A stretch of DNA of 6,964 bases from a virus (Duplodnaviria; Heunggongvirae; Uroviricota; Caudoviricetes). The translations under genes were made by a program, and so were the position numbers. Below the pieces are notes generated by a model, which saw nothing but the letters and a program-made list of their open reading frames with translations, had not been told where the DNA came from and did not search any database. Below are positions 500 through 5,225 of the stretch, piece after piece. Location of the stretch: the IMG/VR virus record IMGVR_UViG_2734482785_000004. One strand, written 5' to 3'. The stretch's first letter is position 1. Every line of letters starts with the position of its first letter.

Positions 500-518
500 G
501 GTCGTTAATGATTTTATC

Positions 519-546
519 CACCCACCGCTGGCGGGTTTTTTATTTT
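519..546 (+). terminator. Candidate rho-independent terminator or attenuator hairpin between the U-like and V-like genes
   Basis: GC-rich imperfect inverted repeat cccaCCGCtgGCGGg (about 521-535) followed by TTTTTTaTTTT (536-546), 20 nt after the upstream TGA (497-499) and just before the RBS of the next gene. Confidence 0.4.
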
Positions 547-547
547 C

Positions 548-552
548 AGGAG
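548..552 (+). promoter_or_regulatory. Ribosome binding site (AGGAG) for the major tail protein gene
   Basis: AGGAG lies 6 nt upstream of ATG 559. Confidence 0.6.
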
Positions 553-558
553 ACGAGT

Positions 559-1263
559 ATGTCCTCTAATTTTGAGCGTTCGCAACTGACGAAAATTATG
601 ATTTCGTCTGCACCGGTAACAGCAGAAACCCTGGATTCTGCCAGCTATCTTGGCCTGAGCTGTACAATCAAAGAGGTGCAGTTTACCGCAGGACAAAAGC
701 AGGATATTGATGTCACCACGCTGTGTTCTGTTGAGCAGGAAAATATTAACGGTCTTGGTGCCGCGTCAGAGATTTCCATGTCAGGCAACTTTTACCTCAA
801 TGCTGCCCAGAACGCGTTGCGCAGTGCCTATGACAATGACACCACGTATGGCTTTAAAGTTATTTTTCCGTCAGGCAACGGATTTACCTTTATGGCAGAG
901 GTGCGTCAGCATACCTGGTCTGCAGGAACTAATGGTGTTGTGGCTGCAACGTTTTCCCTGCGCCTGAAAGGTAAACCTGTGCTGACGACAGAGCCGCTGA
1001 AAGTGAAGGTCGATTTAAACAGCACGCTGCAGGTTTCTGCCGGAGCGAAACTCGAAATGGTGGTTGAGGCTGCCGGTGGTGTGCCGCCTTATTCTTATGT
1101 CTGGAAGAAAGGTAGTTCTCCTGTTTCCGGACAGACGGCGGCAACATTCAGTAAGGCATCAGCAGCATCAGGTGATGCCGGTGCGTATACCTGCGAGATT
1201 TCTGATTCAGCAAGCCCTGTTAACAAGGTGACCTCCACTTCCTGCACTGTAACCGTCAGTTAA
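559..1263 (+). CDS. Major tail (tube) protein, lambda V analogue, with C-terminal Ig-like domain
   Basis: 234-aa product from ATG 559 (MSSNFERSQL...); the track ORF begins at 508, but 559 has the good RBS and lies downstream of the hairpin. N-terminal ~145 aa resemble a tail tube domain (GFKVIFPSGNGFTFMAEV...); C-terminal ~85 aa show Ig-fold hallmarks (PPYSYVWKKG...DAGAYTCEISD...CTVTV). Position directly before the chaperone pair is canonical. Confidence 0.8.
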   Translation: MSSNFERSQLTKIMISSAPVTAETLDSASYLGLSCTIKEVQFTAGQKQDIDVTTLCSVEQENINGLGAASEISMSGNFYLNAAQNALRSAYDNDTTYGFKVIFPSGNGFTFMAEVRQHTWSAGTNGVVAATFSLRLKGKPVLTTEPLKVKVDLNSTLQVSAGAKLEMVVEAAGGVPPYSYVWKKGSSPVSGQTAATFSKASAASGDAGAYTCEISDSASPVNKVTSTSCTVTVS

Positions 1264-1277
1264 TGAGGATGGATGTG

Positions 1278-1649
1278 ATGACTAAAAATATCCGTAATCT
1301 GGCACTGGCAACGATGTCGGGGTTTCGCCATAAAACCGTTGATGTGCCTGAATGGGAGGGAGCATCGGTTGTATTACGGGAACCTTCTGCAGAAGCCTGG
1401 TTGCGCTGGCAGGAGATCGTTAAAGCAAAAGATGATGAGACACCGTTATCCGTTGCGGAGCGCGCCCGCCGAAATCTGGAGGCGGACGTTGAACTGTTCA
1501 TTGATGTTCTGTGTGATACCGGGCTGCAACCCGTATTTTCAGAGGATGATCGTGAACAGGTGATTGCCGTGTATGGCCCGGTGCATGCCCGGCTTCTTCG
1601 CCAGTCTCTGGAACTGATCAGTGATGCCGGAGAGGTTAAAAAAAAGTAG
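1278..1649 (+). CDS. Tail assembly chaperone (lambda G analogue)
   Basis: ORF ending TAG 1647-1649. Start is ambiguous (ATG 1263, ATG 1269, GTG 1275 or ATG 1278); ATG 1278 is preferred because GAGGA at 1265-1269 sits 8 nt upstream. Acidic ~125-aa protein placed between the major tail protein and tape measure genes and ending in a slippery A-run, as in G/GT systems. Confidence 0.7.
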   Translation: MTKNIRNLALATMSGFRHKTVDVPEWEGASVVLREPSAEAWLRWQEIVKAKDDETPLSVAERARRNLEADVELFIDVLCDTGLQPVFSEDDREQVIAVYGPVHARLLRQSLELISDAGEVKKK

Positions 1650-1951
1650 CGCTTCCGGGGATGCGTTTTCTGATGATGCTGGCGCTCAGGATGGGGCGCA
1701 CATTGTCAGAGTTACGCCGGGAAATGTCCGCATCAGAAATCATGATGTGGGCAGAATTTGACAGGTTCAGCCCGCTGGGGGACGAACGGGCTGATATCCG
1801 GGCTGCCCAGATTGTTTCCGCTGTTTACGGTGCGCAGGGGGTCAAAGTACCACTGAATGATGTGCTTCTTCAGTGGGAGCAGGAGCAGACAGAAGGCGCC
1901 TCAGATCCATTTGCCGGGCTGGAAAACGCGCTTTTAACCGTGTCTCAGTGA
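1278..1951 (+). CDS. Tail assembly chaperone frameshift fusion (lambda G-T analogue); join 1278..1646 with 1646..1951 via -1 frameshift
   Basis: Predicted fusion junction ...GEVKKK/VALPGMRFLMMLALRMGRTLSELRREM..., about 224 aa. The downstream ORF (track 1661..1951) has no convincing independent RBS and sits in the -1 frame directly after the slippery heptamer. The G/GT frameshift upstream of the tape measure gene is conserved across long-tailed phages. Confidence 0.75.
1638..1646 (+). other. Programmed -1 ribosomal frameshift slippery site (A_AAA_AAG inside an A8 run)
   Basis: Zero-frame codons GTT AAA AAA AAG TAG. A -1 slip on A_AAA_AAG (1640-1646) continues as GTA GCG CTT CCG GGG ATG..., the frame of the downstream 1661-1951 ORF. 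That -1 frame is closed by TGA at 1622-1624 and open only from 1625, so the slip window is a few codons wide. Confidence 0.75.
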
Positions 1952-1959
1952 GTCAACAT

Positions 1960-1981
1960 AACCGCTTCGGCGGTTTTTTTT
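1960..1981 (+). terminator. Candidate rho-independent terminator or attenuator between the T-like ORF and the tape measure gene
   Basis: Perfect 6-bp stem AACCGC / GCGGTT with TTCG loop (1960-1975), followed by a run of T's to 1981. It lies 9 nt after the TGA at 1949-1951 and just before the tape measure RBS and start. Confidence 0.5.
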
Positions 1982-1991
1982 CGTCCGGAGA

Positions 1992-4900
1992 ATGAGTGTG
2001 GCGACATTACGTGAACTGATTATTAAAATTTCGGCAAACTCCCGGTCATTCCAGTCAGAGATCTCCCGGGCTTCGCGTATGGGGCAGGATTACTACCGCA
2101 CCATGCAGAACGGAGGCCGACAGTCCGCTGCTGCATCCCGTGAAATGCGGCGTGCACTGGCAGAAGTGACGGATCAGATAAATACAGCTAAATCTTCGGC
2201 ACTGAACATGGCGGGGGCATTTGCCGGGGCTTTTGCTACCGGTCATCTTATTTCTCTCGCCGATGAGTGGAATTCAGTCAATGCCCGTCTGAAGCAGGCC
2301 TCACAGTCCAGTGATGATTTTCAGGCATCACAACGTGAATTAATGGCAATCAGCCAGAGAACGGGAACGGCTTTTTCTGATAACGCCAGCCTTTTTGCCC
2401 GCTCTGCAGCTTCCATGCGGGAGTATGGTTACAGTTCTGAGGAGGTACTGAAAGTCACCGAGGCGATCTCCACGGGCCTGAAATTATCCGGTGCCAGTAC
2501 AGCAGAAGCCAGTTCGGTGATCACGCAGTTCAGCCAGGCACTGGCGCAGGGAGTGCTGCGCGGTGAAGAATTTAACGCCGTGAATGAGAGCGGTGATCGT
2601 GTTATTCGTGCGCTGGCTGCGGGAATGGGCGTTGCCCGTAAGGATCTGAAGGCCATGGCGGATAACGGAAAACTGACCGCCGATAAGGTTGTTCCTGCAC
2701 TGATTAGTCAGCTTGGGGCGTTGCGTGATGAATATGCAGCAATGCCTGATACGGTTTCATCCTCTGCAACCAAAGTTGAAAACGCCTTTATGGCCTGGGT
2801 TGGTGGTGCGAACGAGGCAAGCGGAGTGACGAAGACGCTCTCCGGGGTGCTGAATGGTCTTGCAGGCAATATTGACACCGTGGCAACCGCTGCCGGTGCT
2901 CTGGTTGCCGTCGGGGTAGCCCGATATTTTGGCAATATGGCGTCTTCTGCTGGATCTGCAACTGCCGGATTAATTACTGCAGCCAGAAACGAAGTGGCTC
3001 TTGCGGAAGCGCAGCTCCGGGGGACGCAGATAGCAACCGCCAGGGCGCGTGCGGCGGTTTATCGTGCGCAACAGGCGGTCGCGGCTACCCGTGGTACTGA
3101 AAGACAGGCAGCCGCAGAAGCGAAACTGGCTGCTGCCCAGGCATCACTTACCCGTAATATTGCGGCCAGAACAGCAGCACAGACAACGCTGAATACTGTC
3201 ACGTCAGTGGGGAGTCGTCTGTTAAGTGGGGCACTGGGACTGGTTGGGGGTGTGCCGGGGCTTGTCATGCTGGGGGCCGCGGCCTGGTACACAATGTATC
3301 AGAATCAGGAGCAGGCCAGAGAATCTGCACGCCAGTATGCCGCAACAATCGACGAAATTCGCCAGAAAACGTCGGCAATGTCGCTTCCTGAAGCGTCAGA
3401 TAATGAGGAAAAGACGCGGCAGGCACTGAAGGAGCAGAACAGGTTAATTGACGAGCAGAAAAGTAAGATTAAATCCTTACAGGAAAAAATTGCTGGCTAT
3501 CAGTACGTGCTGGCAAACCCGGGCTGGACAACCGATAACGGTTTTATGATTAACCACATGACGTCGGTAAAAACTGTCACAGAAGGGCTTGCCGAAGCAA
3601 CAAATCAACTGGCAGTTGAACAGTCTCGCCTCACTCAAATGCAGGGCAAAGCGCAATCCATTCAGGATGTGCTTGCCGGGCTGGAGGAACGACGGGTGGC
3701 GTTGATCCGTCAACAGGCGGCGGAACAAAACAAAGCGTATCAGTCCCTGTTGATCATGAATGGGCAGCATACCGAGTTTAATCGCCTTCTCGGGCTTGGT
3801 AATGAATTACTTCAGCAGCGACAGGGGCTGATGAATGTACCGTTACGGCTACCACAGGCAACCCTGGATGATAAACAGCAGACCGCACTGAATAACAGTA
3901 AGCGCGAACTGGCTCTGTCCCGCCTGAAGGGGGAAGCGCGTGAGCGTGCCCGACTGGGCTATGCTGCGGATGATCTCGGCTTTGTGGGAGAGGCGTATCA
4001 GACAGCCAGACAGAATTATATCAATAACTCACTGGATGCCTGGCGAAATAACCAGGCAAATAAACCCAAAGCGCATAAAAAGACCGAAGCGGAAAAAACA
4101 GAAGATATTTATAAACGGCTGATTAAACAGCAGAAAGAACAGATAGCACTGGCAGGGCAGAATACTGAACTGGCTAAGATGAAATATCAGGTCAGTCAGG
4201 GCGAATTATCAACCCTGTCAGAAGCGCAGAAAAAAACGCTTTTGCAGAATGCAGCACTCATCGACCAGAAAAAGATTCGTGAGCAGCTTGCCGCGTATGA
4301 AAGCAGTCTGGCGGACAGTAATGCCAGTGCCCGGGCATCTGACGACGCGCAGTTGCTGGGATATGGTGAAGGCTTACGGATGCGTGAACGACTCCAGGAA
4401 ATGTGGAGTATCCGGCAGACGTTTGAGCAGAAAAATAACGAGCTGCTGAGACAGTATCAGGCCGGAGAAATTGAAGAAGCCCTGTGGAAACAGGAGAAAG
4501 AACTGAATAAAAAATATCTGGAAGAGCGTCTCAGCGATCAGCAGGATTATTATGCAAAGGCCGATGCTTTACGTAATAACTGGAATGCCGGACTCCAGGA
4601 GGGACTGACCAACTGGGCAGACAGTGCCACTGATTATGCTTCGCAGGCGGCAGATGCTGTCGTTTCCACGATGGACGGGCTGGTATCAAATATTTCCGAT
4701 GCACTGGCCGGGAATGTTGTGGACTGGAGGAACTGGGGGAGTTCAGTTCTCCGGGAAGTTTCAAAAATTCTGATGAATGCAGCCATTGTTAACGGACTGA
4801 AATCACTCTCCGGTGCCGGAGGGTGGCTTGGTACGGTCGGCGGATGGATTTCGGGGGCAGTGGCAAACGCAAAAGGTGGTGTTTACACATCGGCAAATCT

Positions 4901-5225
4901 GAGTGCTTACAGTAACACTATTGTGGATACACCGACGTATTTTGCTTTTGCGAAAGGTGCCGGGTTGATGGGCGAGGCCGGGCCTGAAGCAATCATGCCA
5001 CTGACACGGGCAGCGGACGGCTCTCTTGGGGTCAGGGCCATTGGAAATGTGAATGGTGGCGGTGGATTTGTTTATTCTCCCGTGTATCACATCAGCATTC
5101 AGAATCAAGGGAGCAATGGCGAGATAGATGCGCGCTCAGCCAGGGGACTGGTGGATCTGATCGACAGCAGGGTTGTGTCAATTATGCAGTCATCGCGTCG
5201 GGATGGAGGATTGTACAGTGCCTGA
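1992..5225 (+). CDS. Tail tape measure protein (lambda H analogue)
   Basis: 1077-aa ORF. N-terminal region resembles the tape-measure N-terminal domain (...GYSSEEVLKVTEAISTGLKLSGASTAEASSVITQFSQALAQGVLRGEEFNAVNESGDRVIRAL...). Two hydrophobic Gly/Ala-rich segments (LVAVGVARYF...; LSGALGLVGGVPGLVMLGAAAWY) are followed by a long Q/E/K/R/A-rich helical region. The C-terminus (...GPEAIMPL...RDGGLYSA) resembles the lambda H C-terminus as recalled. GTG 1998 is an alternative start with better spacing from GGAG 1987-1990. Confidence 0.9.
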   Translation: MSVATLRELIIKISANSRSFQSEISRASRMGQDYYRTMQNGGRQSAAASREMRRALAEVTDQINTAKSSALNMAGAFAGAFATGHLISLADEWNSVNARLKQASQSSDDFQASQRELMAISQRTGTAFSDNASLFARSAASMREYGYSSEEVLKVTEAISTGLKLSGASTAEASSVITQFSQALAQGVLRGEEFNAVNESGDRVIRALAAGMGVARKDLKAMADNGKLTADKVVPALISQLGALRDEYAAMPDTVSSSATKVENAFMAWVGGANEASGVTKTLSGVLNGLAGNIDTVATAAGALVAVGVARYFGNMASSAGSATAGLITAARNEVALAEAQLRGTQIATARARAAVYRAQQAVAATRGTERQAAAEAKLAAAQASLTRNIAARTAAQTTLNTVTSVGSRLLSGALGLVGGVPGLVMLGAAAWYTMYQNQEQARESARQYAATIDEIRQKTSAMSLPEASDNEEKTRQALKEQNRLIDEQKSKIKSLQEKIAGYQYVLANPGWTTDNGFMINHMTSVKTVTEGLAEATNQLAVEQSRLTQMQGKAQSIQDVLAGLEERRVALIRQQAAEQNKAYQSLLIMNGQHTEFNRLLGLGNELLQQRQGLMNVPLRLPQATLDDKQQTALNNSKRELALSRLKGEARERARLGYAADDLGFVGEAYQTARQNYINNSLDAWRNNQANKPKAHKKTEAEKTEDIYKRLIKQQKEQIALAGQNTELAKMKYQVSQGELSTLSEAQKKTLLQNAALIDQKKIREQLAAYESSLADSNASARASDDAQLLGYGEGLRMRERLQEMWSIRQTFEQKNNELLRQYQAGEIEEALWKQEKELNKKYLEERLSDQQDYYAKADALRNNWNAGLQEGLTNWADSATDYASQAADAVVSTMDGLVSNISDALAGNVVDWRNWGSSVLREVSKILMNAAIVNGLKSLSGAGGWLGTVGGWISGAVANAKGGVYTSANLSAYSNTIVDTPTYFAFAKGAGLMGEAGPEAIMPLTRAADGSLGVRAIGNVNGGGGFVYSPVYHISIQNQGSNGEIDARSARGLVDLIDSRVVSIMQSSRRDGGLYSA

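What the first reader, a model, noticed from the sequence alone, without database searches (positions are those of the whole stretch)
1625..1663. Programmed -1 frameshift site (A_AAA_AAG in an A8 tract) producing a G-T-type chaperone fusion
The chaperone ORF ends ...GTT AAA AAA AAG TAG, and the downstream ORF lies in the -1 frame with only a 7-codon open overlap (1625-1646) centred on the heptamer. Lambda itself uses G_GGA_AAG, so this phage uses the dnaX-type heptamer instead. The A8 run could in principle also support transcriptional slippage, so the mechanism (ribosomal versus polymerase) is open. The predicted fusion is ...GEVKKK/VALPGMRFLMML... (about 224 aa).
Basis: partly seen in the sequence, partly recalled or inferred. 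Interest (0 to 1): 0.55.

Follow-up and report, generated by a model that had tools for sequence, protein, structure and literature searches.

The report
Phage tail chaperone G-T frameshift site
This is the ordinary programmed -1 ribosomal frameshift that long-tailed phages use to make a small amount of a fused "G-T" tail-assembly chaperone, here in an HK97-like E. coli prophage that uses the A_AAA_AAG slippery sequence; it is a well-known mechanism that public annotation of this prophage misses.

Summary
The core observation holds. The G-like chaperone gene (1278-1649) ends GTT AAA AAA AAG TAG. The T-like reading frame (to 1951) lies in the -1 frame. A -1 slip on A_AAA_AAG (1640-1646) gives a 224-aa fusion, ...GEVKKK-VALPGMRF....

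One detail is wrong. The -1 frame has a TAA at 1637-1639, so the two frames overlap by only the 7 nucleotides of the heptamer, not 7 codons.

The G part is HK97 gp13-type (PF06222; PDB 2OB9). The T part is lambda-T-type (PF06223). HK97 gp14 (224 aa) is the annotated frameshift product at the homologous position.

Across about 15 diverged lineages the -1 layout and a Lys-AAG slip site persist. The motif varies: A_AAA_AAG with A6, A7 or A8, G_GGA_AAG, G_GAA_AAG, A_AAA_AAC and N_GCA_AAG+stop. That pattern points to ribosomal slippage rather than polymerase slippage.

I found no dnaX-like stimulators: no SD-like element at 9-14 nt and no conserved downstream structure. ATG 1661 is not conserved and has no ribosome-binding site.

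Verdict: a new member of a known kind. The frameshift is unannotated in this E. coli prophage clade (about 17% of complete genomes). Interest is low.

The parts
1278..1649 (+). G-like tail assembly chaperone gene (123 aa, HK97 gp13 type). The ATG at 1278 has a good SD (GAGGA at 1266-1270).
   Evidence: PF06222 Phage_TAC_1, E=3.7e-58, full length. PDB 2OB9 'Tail assembly chaperone', E=3.7e-49. SD duplex -8.5 kcal/mol. Annotated at the same start in relatives.
1640..1646 (+). Slippery heptamer A_AAA_AAG, with AAA in the P site and AAG in the A site. It is the only place where a -1 shift can join G to T.
   Evidence: The 14-nt string TTAAAAAAAAGTAG is invariant in 83 of the 84 loci then held (all but lambda) and in 112 of 115 homologous loci of a second IMG/VR scan that overlaps them. 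Literature on A_AAA_AAG: PMC5009743.
1638..1645 (+). A8 homopolymer that contains the heptamer. It is a possible minor site of RNA polymerase slippage and a hotspot for length change (A7 alleles occur).
   Evidence: A8 at 1638-1645. (3 of 115 relatives have A7). PMC6260861.
1637..1639 (+). TAA stop in the -1 frame, immediately 5' of the heptamer. It sets the 5' limit of the shift window.
   Evidence: translation ...CRRG*KKVALPGM. (overlap 7 nt).
1647..1649 (+). TAG stop of G in the 0 frame, immediately 3' of the heptamer. It sets the 3' limit of the shift window and may act as a 'shifty stop' stimulator.
   Evidence: A stop directly after the slip codon recurs in 10 of about 15 lineages.
1646..1951 (+). 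T-domain coding sequence in the -1 frame (101 codons, then TGA at 1949-1951). It is translated only as the C-terminal part of the 224-aa G-T fusion.
   Evidence: PF06223 Phage_tail_T, E=5e-20. phrog_14766 positions 129-221. ATG 1661 has no SD (-1.0 kcal/mol) and is replaced by ATT, GTG or other codons in relatives.
508..1263 (+). Context: major tail tube protein with a C-terminal Ig-like domain. It is the expected binding partner of the T domain.
   Evidence: Pfam Ig_2, Ig_3, Phage_TTP_11 and Phage_tail_2. Annotated as major tail subunit in relatives.
1992..5225 (+). Context: tape measure protein, which probably starts at GTG 1998. It is the expected binding partner of the G domain.
   Evidence: ORF list. 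Annotation of relatives. GGAG at 1987-1990 lies 7 nt before GTG 1998.

Best explanation
Most ribosomes translating the G-like chaperone gene stop at TAG 1647 and release the 123-aa chaperone. A small fraction slip back one nucleotide on A_AAA_AAG (1640-1646). E. coli's single tRNA-Lys re-pairs from AAA/AAG to AAA/AAA, and the ribosome continues in the -1 frame through GTA GCG CTT CCG GGG ATG... to the TGA at 1949-1951. The result is a 224-aa G-T fusion.

By analogy with lambda gpG/gpGT, the G parts coat the tape measure protein and the rare T domain recruits the major tail protein. The frameshift rate therefore fixes the G:GT ratio needed for tail assembly.

Shown here: the sequence anatomy, the homology of both halves, and the conservation of the -1 layout and slip site. 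Inferred: that the shift occurs, its few-percent rate, and its role in assembly.
For: 1. Anatomy. The heptamer sits in register in the only 7-nt overlap of the two open frames.

2. Homology. G matches PF06222 (E=3.7e-58) and PDB 2OB9. T matches PF06223 (E=5e-20), the family that also matches lambda T. The fusion matches both. phrog_14766, a 224-position profile, covers G at 1-121 and T at 129-221.

3. Annotated precedent at the homologous site. My junction rule reproduces HK97 gp14 NP_037707.1 exactly.

4. Comparative evidence. The -1 frame extension of 91-105 aa is kept in 24 of 25 genome loci, with one further locus truncated at 68 aa. The slip motif varies but always provides a Lys (or Asn) slip codon at the aligned position:
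- A_AAA_AAG with A8: this clade.
- A_AAA_AAG with A6: BP-4795 and the Burkholderia phages.
- A_AAA_AAG with A7: Proteus, Vibrio, Rahnella, Xenorhabdus.
- G_GGA_AAG: lambda, mEp390 group, SW-37.
- G_GAA_AAG: HK97 group.
- A_AAA_AAC: Salinicola, Halomonas.

5. No independent start for T. ATG 1661 has no SD (-1.0 kcal/mol, against -8.5 for G). It is ATT in BP-4795 and GTG or ATT in near relatives.

6. Literature. A_AAA_AAG is the most shift-prone heptamer in E. coli, and G-T frameshifting at about 30:1 is conserved in long-tailed phages (PMC5009743).
Against: There is no direct product evidence; everything is comparative.

No recognised stimulator was found. The SD-like GGAGAGG (1629-1635) lies only 4-7 nt upstream, whereas 9-14 nt is needed, and it reads GGCGAGG or GGTGAGG in most relatives. 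RNAalifold finds no consensus structure downstream. The window's own MFE hairpins are only 55-60% maintained in homologues and show no compensatory changes among 15 distinct near-relative sequences. The efficiency is therefore unknown.

The A8 tract means that a polymerase contribution cannot be excluded, and it would give an identical protein.

PGAP and most phage records annotate T as a separate gene.
Confidence: 0.88

Rival explanations
1. Transcriptional slippage. RNA polymerase inserts one extra A in the A8 tract, producing A9 mRNA. Standard translation of that mRNA then gives the same ...KKKVALPG... fusion, and this route, not the ribosome, is the main source of G-T.
For: The tract is 8 As. 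Eight is the shortest A run at which E. coli RNA polymerase slippage becomes detectable (PMC6260861). Some IS elements appear to use A8 (PMC1088944). The A8 length is kept in two E. coli sub-clades, GTT AAA... and ATT AAA....
Against: Homologues keep the same -1 layout with A6 (BP-4795, phi1026b, phiE125, Bcep176), with A7, or with G_GGA_AAG / G_GAA_AAG, none of which can support polymerase slippage. E. coli polymerase gave only 0.39% insertions at an A7 run and favours T runs over A runs. The usual threshold is 9. The tract ends in G, in the exact register of a ribosomal heptamer.
Confidence: 0.05
2. A variant of the ribosomal mechanism. The effective event is a single-tRNA slip of peptidyl-tRNA-Lys from AAG to AAA (the A_AAG tetramer) while the slowly decoded TAG sits in the A site ('shifty stop'). 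On this view the adjacent stop, rather than the first half of the heptamer, is the stimulator. The G:GT ratio would then respond to RF1 termination efficiency.
For: In 10 of about 15 lineages the slip codon is followed directly by the 0-frame stop. Among those lineages that use AAG the invariant core is A_AAG_TAR, while the preceding codon varies: AAA, GGA, or GCA in Klebsiella, Raoultella and Pantoea, where tandem slippage is not possible. The A_AAG tetramer is a recognised minimal -1 site, used by IS1222 at G_CGA_AAG (PMC5009743).
Against: HK97, Xenorhabdus, Burkholderia-phage and lambda lineages have the stop 12-33 nt away, and the mEp390 group has it 3 nt away. The base after the stop is also constrained by the -1-frame codon. 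The full heptamer is present here and is sufficient by itself in E. coli. The protein product cannot tell the two apart.
Confidence: 0.25
3. No recoding occurs. T is made on its own from ATG 1661 (96 aa) or ATG 1673 (92 aa, the PGAP call), and the heptamer is incidental.
For: PGAP and several phage records annotate a free-standing T gene. A weak SD-like GGGG lies about 12 nt before ATG 1673 (-5.7 kcal/mol). The Met of the FLM motif is widely conserved.
Against: ATG 1661 has no SD and is not conserved. The GGGG element is not conserved in BP-4795, HK97 or Proteus. The -1 register, with a slip motif in the overlap, is conserved across lineages that share only 28-70% identity, which independent initiation would not require. 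In lambda the T sequence is reported only as part of gpGT (my knowledge of Levin et al. 1993, which is cited in PMC5009743).
Confidence: 0.03

Closest known systems
HK97 gp13/gp14 tail assembly chaperone pair (annotated -1 frameshift; gp13 structure PDB 2OB9)
   Same: Same Pfam families (PF06222 + PF06223). Same gene position between the major tail and tape measure genes. Same 224-aa fusion length. The slip codon sits at the aligned position. G is 64% identical.
   Different: HK97 uses the imperfect G_GAA_AAG, with the stop 15 nt downstream and a 49-nt overlap. Here the site is a perfect A_AAA_AAG within an A8 run, squeezed into a 7-nt overlap that abuts the stop. HK97 also has a moron (gp15) between T and the tape measure gene, which is absent here.
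Lambda gpG/gpGT programmed -1 frameshift (Levin 1993; Xu 2004, 2013, 2014)
   Same: Same logic and gene order. The T domain is homologous (PF06223 matches both). The downstream frame is -1. The expected role is to set a G:GT ratio of about 30:1.
   Different: Lambda G belongs to a different Pfam family (PF06894), and the alignment puts it at 20% identity. Its heptamer is G_GGA_AAG, its overlap is 61 nt, and its T part is longer.
E. coli dnaX gamma/tau frameshift cassette
   Same: Identical heptamer A_AAA_AAG, decoded by the same single tRNA-Lys (PMC5009743).
   Different: The dnaX stimulators are missing. No SD-like element lies 9-14 nt upstream, no conserved stem-loop lies a few nt downstream, and there is no Rfam match. 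A low efficiency is therefore expected, rather than about 50%. Here the shift extends the protein, whereas in dnaX it truncates it.
Burkholderia phages Bcep176 (69/69'), phiE125 and phi1026b, and Stx phage BP-4795: G-T sites with A_AAA_AAG
   Same: Same chaperone family and the same A_AAA_AAG heptamer in the -1 overlap. Bcep176 already carries an annotated join.
   Different: They have A6 rather than A8. In the Burkholderia phages the stop is 30-33 nt downstream and the overlaps are long (175-490 nt).

Membership tests
G/GT-type tail assembly chaperone with programmed -1 frameshift (lambda/HK97 paradigm) | Two ORFs lie between the major tail protein gene and the tape measure gene. | tested here: met
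   Order: major tail 508-1263, G 1278-1649, T to 1951, tape measure 1992/1998-5225. The same order is annotated in relatives.
G/GT-type tail assembly chaperone with programmed -1 frameshift (lambda/HK97 paradigm) | The downstream ORF is in the -1 frame, overlaps the 3' end of the upstream ORF, and has no start site of its own. | tested here: met
   The -1 frame is open from 1640 and G stops at 1647. ATG 1661 has no SD (-1.0 kcal/mol) and is not conserved. A weak SD-like element before ATG 1673 cannot be fully excluded.
G/GT-type tail assembly chaperone with programmed -1 frameshift (lambda/HK97 paradigm) | A slippery X_XXY_YYZ heptamer lies in register inside the overlap. | tested here: met
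   A_AAA_AAG at 1640-1646, with 0-frame codons AAA and AAG.
G/GT-type tail assembly chaperone with programmed -1 frameshift (lambda/HK97 paradigm) | Both halves are homologous to known chaperone and T families. | tested here: met
   PF06222 at 3.7e-58, PF06223 at 5e-20, 2OB9 at 3.7e-49, and phrog_14766 spanning both.
G/GT-type tail assembly chaperone with programmed -1 frameshift (lambda/HK97 paradigm) | The frameshift layout is conserved in diverged relatives. | tested here: met
   24 of 25 genome loci and 13 diverged phages whose junction could be read keep a -1 extension of about 91-138 aa, with a slip motif at the aligned position.
G/GT-type tail assembly chaperone with programmed -1 frameshift (lambda/HK97 paradigm) | Two products, G and G-T, are made in a fixed ratio, and both are needed for tail assembly. 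| not testable with these tools
   This needs protein analysis and genetics. It is known for lambda (PMC5009743).
dnaX-type frameshift cassette | A_AAA_AAG heptamer. | tested here: met
dnaX-type frameshift cassette | An internal Shine-Dalgarno-like stimulator lies 9-14 nt 5' of the shift site. | tested here: not met
   GGAG ends 7 nt and GAGG ends 4 nt before the heptamer. The element reads GGCGAGG or GGTGAGG in most relatives and is absent in BP-4795 and Proteus. The spacing rule comes from PMC5009743.
dnaX-type frameshift cassette | A stimulatory stem-loop lies a few nucleotides 3' of the shift site. | tested here: not met
   The window's MFE has hairpins (z = -2.3 and -2.95). The strong one starts 16 nt downstream. 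RNAalifold gives 0 consensus pairs. Only 55-60% of cells are paired in homologues. Near relatives show no compensatory changes. There is no Rfam match to any frameshift element.
Programmed transcriptional slippage sites (Thermus dnaX, IS elements, Shigella mxiE/spa13) | A homopolymeric A or T run is long enough for efficient polymerase slippage, typically 9 or more. | tested here: inconclusive
   The run is A8, at the detection threshold for E. coli polymerase (PMC6260861) and one short of the usual 9 (PMC1088944).
Programmed transcriptional slippage sites (Thermus dnaX, IS elements, Shigella mxiE/spa13) | The long run is conserved in homologues that keep the two-ORF layout. | tested here: not met
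   Homologues have A6, A7, G_GGA_AAG, G_GAA_AAG or N_GCA_AAG.
Programmed transcriptional slippage sites (Thermus dnaX, IS elements, Shigella mxiE/spa13) | The mRNA population is heterogeneous in run length. | not testable with these tools
   Needs cDNA sequencing.

The most novel reading that the evidence does not exclude
The A8 tract works at three levels at once.
- It is a ribosomal -1 site whose output is boosted by the abutting TAG, a 'shifty stop' that would make the G:GT ratio sensitive to RF1.
- It is a low-level RNA polymerase slippage site.
- It is a replication-slippage hotspot that switches prophage tail assembly off. A7 alleles give no access to T. A9 alleles give fused G-T only.

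On this reading, homopolymer length in this very common E. coli prophage would act as a contingency switch on tail production.
Probability: 0.08. Interest if true: 0.4.

Novelty: new member of a known kind. Interest (0 to 1): 0.15.

Why it matters
The main value is for annotation. This prophage tail module occurs in about 900 of 5,426 complete E. coli genomes. RefSeq/PGAP and most phage records there list 'tail assembly protein T / DUF4035' as a free-standing 92-96-aa gene and omit the 224-aa frameshift product.

The locus is also a very clean natural example. The shift window is reduced to the bare heptamer, with stops on both sides and no detectable stimulators. That would make it a convenient minimal reporter for intrinsic A_AAA_AAG slippage and for testing the effect of an adjacent stop codon.

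It does not change what is understood about G-T frameshifting.

Tried and rejected
1. dnaX-like stimulators. The SD spacing is wrong and the element is not conserved. Downstream structure is not conserved: 0 pairs from RNAalifold, 55-60% pairing in homologues, and no compensatory changes in 15 distinct near-relative sequences. There is no Rfam frameshift-element match. Only sub-threshold hits appeared, such as isrK at 18.7 bits against a gathering score of 50.

2. Independent initiation of T. Rejected on SD energies and on the non-conservation of ATG 1661.

3. The +1-frame ORF (1618/1621-1761). Its length is not conserved in homologues (3-82 aa), so I treat it as non-coding.

4. Fetching DNA behind the 224-aa in-frame proteins in NCBI (CDK90654.1 and others). 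A BLAST of an A9 version of the commonest flank found no exact A9 allele among 899 complete E. coli genomes.

5. The profile of all 11 chaperones was too divergent for locus finding, so I repeated the search with 7.

6. Xu et al. 2004 could not be read. Its content is cited only through PMC5009743 and PMC10885494.

7. NCBIfam had no model for either protein.

Full report
**What is in the window**

The window is the tail-assembly part of a lambdoid, HK97-like siphophage or prophage of E. coli. The genes in order, all on the + strand, are:
- a tail completion protein (155-499; PF11367);
- a major tail protein with a C-terminal Ig-like domain (508-1263);
- a 123-aa chaperone (1278-1649; PF06222 Phage_TAC_1, E=3.7e-58);
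- a T-like reading frame ending at 1951 (PF06223 Phage_tail_T, E=5e-20);
- the tape measure protein (1992/1998-5225);
- homologues of lambda M and L.

The G-T segment is 96-97.5% identical to 11 E. coli phage records. It is also 96-97.5% identical to prophages in about 900 of 5,426 complete E. coli genomes, always on the chromosome.

**Checking the observation**

The chaperone ORF ends GTT AAA AAA AAG TAG (1635-1649). The A run is 8 long (1638-1645). The heptamer A_AAA_AAG occupies 1640-1646 in the correct register. The downstream ORF is in the -1 frame. A -1 slip gives ...GEVKKK-VALPGMRFLMML... and a product of 224 aa.

One statement is wrong. The -1 frame reads ...DQ*CRRG*KKVALPGM, so there is a TAA at 1637-1639. 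The two open frames overlap only over the 7 nucleotides of the heptamer, not over 7 codons. The site is therefore bracketed by a -1-frame stop on its 5' side and the 0-frame TAG on its 3' side.

The heptamer by itself is not statistically unusual in 7 kb: 2 were found against 1.14 expected. Its occurrence in register in the single permissive slot is what is unusual. The comparative data below show that the slot is under selection.

**Homology**

The G part is of the HK97 gp13 type. It matches PF06222 and the solved HK97 chaperone 2OB9 at E=3.7e-49. Lambda's own gpG belongs to another family, PF06894. The T part belongs to the same Pfam family as lambda T.

A PHROG profile of 224 positions (phrog_14766) matches G at positions 1-121 and T at positions 129-221. 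Fusions of exactly this type and length are therefore already in phage databases.

HK446 and Burkholderia phage Bcep176 (69/69', 'lambda T equivalent') carry joined CDS features. I applied one junction rule: translate through the AAG slip codon, then step back one base. Applied to HK97, this reproduces NP_037707.1 exactly. That validates the rule used for the window.

**Comparative evidence for the mechanism**

I read the junction in 14 phage loci and 25 bacterial genome loci from Enterobacter, Klebsiella, Raoultella, Xenorhabdus, Proteus, Pantoea, Kluyvera, Rahnella, Salinicola and others. The chaperones are 28-70% identical to the window's.

A -1-frame extension of 91-105 aa beginning ...FLM.LALR.GRT... 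is present in 24 of the 25 genome loci; in one of them (Xenorhabdus kozodoii) it is cut to 68 aa. The exception is a Leclercia locus that looks disrupted. A slip motif lies at the aligned C-terminal '..A.KK' position. The motif itself varies:

| Motif | Lineages |
|---|---|
| A_AAA_AAG, A8 | this clade and a second E. coli sub-clade (ATT AAA AAA AAG TAG) |
| A_AAA_AAG, A6 | Stx phage BP-4795; phi1026b, phiE125, Bcep176 |
| A_AAA_AAG, A7 | Proteus, Vibrio Pm34, Rahnella, Xenorhabdus |
| G_GGA_AAG | lambda, mEp390 group, Salmonella SW-37 |
| G_GAA_AAG | HK97 group |
| A_AAA_AAC | Salinicola, Halomonas (A9 run in the Halomonas phage) |
| A/G_GCA_AAG + TAA | Klebsiella, Raoultella, Pantoea |

This is the signature of selection for a ribosomal slip codon read by tRNA-Lys, not for a long homopolymer.

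Within the window's own clade, the 14-nt string TTAAAAAAAAGTAG is invariant while flanking bases vary. Position 1631 is A, C or T. Positions 1650 and 1652 vary. ATG 1661 becomes GTG or ATT.

**Ribosome or polymerase**

The review PMC5009743 states several relevant points:
- This is because the single tRNA-Lys pairs weakly with AAG.
- It is the dnaX site.
- G_GGA_AAG is also highly shift-prone.
- The tetramer A_AAG is a minimal -1 site.

For polymerase slippage, PMC6260861 found no detectable activity of E. coli RNA polymerase on fewer than eight As. It measured 0.39% insertions at an A7 run and a preference for T runs. PMC1088944 places the usual threshold at nine.

Inserting one A would give mRNA encoding exactly the same ...KKKV... 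protein, so the two routes cannot be told apart at the protein level. However, homologues with A6, A7 or G_GGA_AAG keep the layout, which makes the ribosome the primary agent. I put polymerase slippage as the main mechanism at about 5%. A small additive contribution is possible.

**Stimulators**

None of the dnaX stimulators is present.
- The SD-like GGAGAGG (1629-1635) lies 4-7 nt upstream, whereas -1 stimulation needs 9-14 nt. It reads GGCGAGG or GGTGAGG in most relatives and is absent in BP-4795 and Proteus.
- The window folds into hairpins with modest z-scores of -2.3 and -2.95. The A tract sits in the loop of a weak one, and the stronger one starts 16 nt downstream.
- RNAalifold finds no consensus pairs in 13 diverged homologues.
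- The window's structure is only 55-60% maintained in those homologues. The one well-kept 6-bp stem coincides with the conserved LALRMGR peptide and shows no covariation.
- Fifteen distinct near-relative sequences show broken pairs and no compensatory changes.
- Rfam has no match to any frameshift element.

A low, lambda-like efficiency is therefore expected. This is inference.

One feature may matter. The 0-frame stop directly abuts the slip codon in 10 of about 15 lineages. The two lineages with a non-slippery first codon (GCA) both have it. This fits a 'shifty stop' P-site slip on A_AAG_TAR as a contributing or alternative ribosomal route. I rate that at about 25%.

**Independent translation of T**

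ATG 1661 has no Shine-Dalgarno complementarity (-1.0 kcal/mol, against -8.5 for G). It is not conserved. ATG 1673, the PGAP start, has only a weak and poorly spaced GGGG that is not conserved. I rate free-standing T at about 3%.

**How it compares with what is known**

This is the G/GT frameshift described for lambda and shown to be conserved among long-tailed phages (Levin 1993 and Xu 2004, as cited in PMC5009743 and PMC10885494). The closest characterised case is HK97 gp13/gp14.

It differs from HK97 in three ways. The heptamer is perfect rather than imperfect. The overlap is the minimal 7 nt. The stop is adjacent.

It differs from lambda in the G family and the heptamer. It shares only the heptamer with dnaX. 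A_AAA_AAG in this chaperone family is already annotated in Bcep176.

What is not in the public records is the frameshift in this particular, very common E. coli prophage clade. There, G and T are annotated as separate genes.

**Verdict**

It is a new member of a known kind, and interest is low (0.15). Confidence in the ribosomal -1 frameshift is about 0.88.

Noticed in passing
window 1638-1645; loci L130, L143, L190: Three of 115 homologous IMG/VR loci carry A7 instead of A8. This puts T out of reach of a -1 shift and extends G by a 37-aa +1-frame tail. They may be real replication-slippage mutants (dead tail modules) or homopolymer sequencing errors.
   Followed up: partly
proteins P0001 and P0002 (NCBI CDK90654.1, KZP42445.1, STQ49536.1): The exact 224-aa fusion sequences predicted for near relatives already exist in NCBI, ENA and Logan as ordinary single-ORF gene calls on 12 and 6 contigs. 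This implies assemblies with an in-frame tract (probably A9). No exact A9 allele was found in 899 complete E. coli genomes. The DNA could not be fetched.
   Followed up: partly
L089, L103, L104, L105 (Klebsiella, Raoultella) and L115 (Pantoea): These homologues have a non-canonical site, AAA/GAG GCA AAG TAA, in a 7- to 13-nt overlap in the Klebsiella and Raoultella loci (103 nt in Pantoea). Tandem slippage is impossible on GCA. Only the A_AAG tetramer plus the adjacent stop is available, which suggests single-tRNA 'shifty stop' frameshifting in those phages.
   Followed up: partly
window 1960-1983: A strong intrinsic-terminator-like hairpin (AACCGCTTCGGCGGTT followed by T8) sits between the T stop (1951) and the tape measure start (1992/1998). 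HK97 has an annotated putative terminator at the equivalent place, after its gp15 moron, but no moron is present here. A sub-threshold Rfam isrK hit (1896-1980, 18.7 bits against a gathering score of 50) overlaps it and probably reflects only the terminator.
   Followed up: partly
window 1992-2000: The tape measure gene probably starts at GTG 1998 rather than ATG 1992. GGAG at 1987-1990 lies 7 nt before it, and this matches the annotated start in phage vB_EcoS-640R1.
   Followed up: partly
L003 (E. coli S1-IND-02-A, NZ_CP145646.1): In one E. coli genome an IS2 element has inserted into the G chaperone gene of a related prophage. It leaves a truncated G and an intact slip site and T.
   Followed up: no
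L092 (Halomonas phage H4907) and L120 (Salinicola): The Halomonadaceae relatives use A_AAA_AAC (Asn codon, A9 run in the Halomonas phage) instead of ...AAG. This may reflect a different tRNA-Lys repertoire in those hosts.
   Followed up: no
L122 (phage vB_EcoM-606R7, ON470580.1): In this 96%-identical phage record the T region is annotated as two short 'tail assembly chaperone' CDSs (138 and 207 nt). This suggests an indel or a sequencing error inside T.
   Followed up: no
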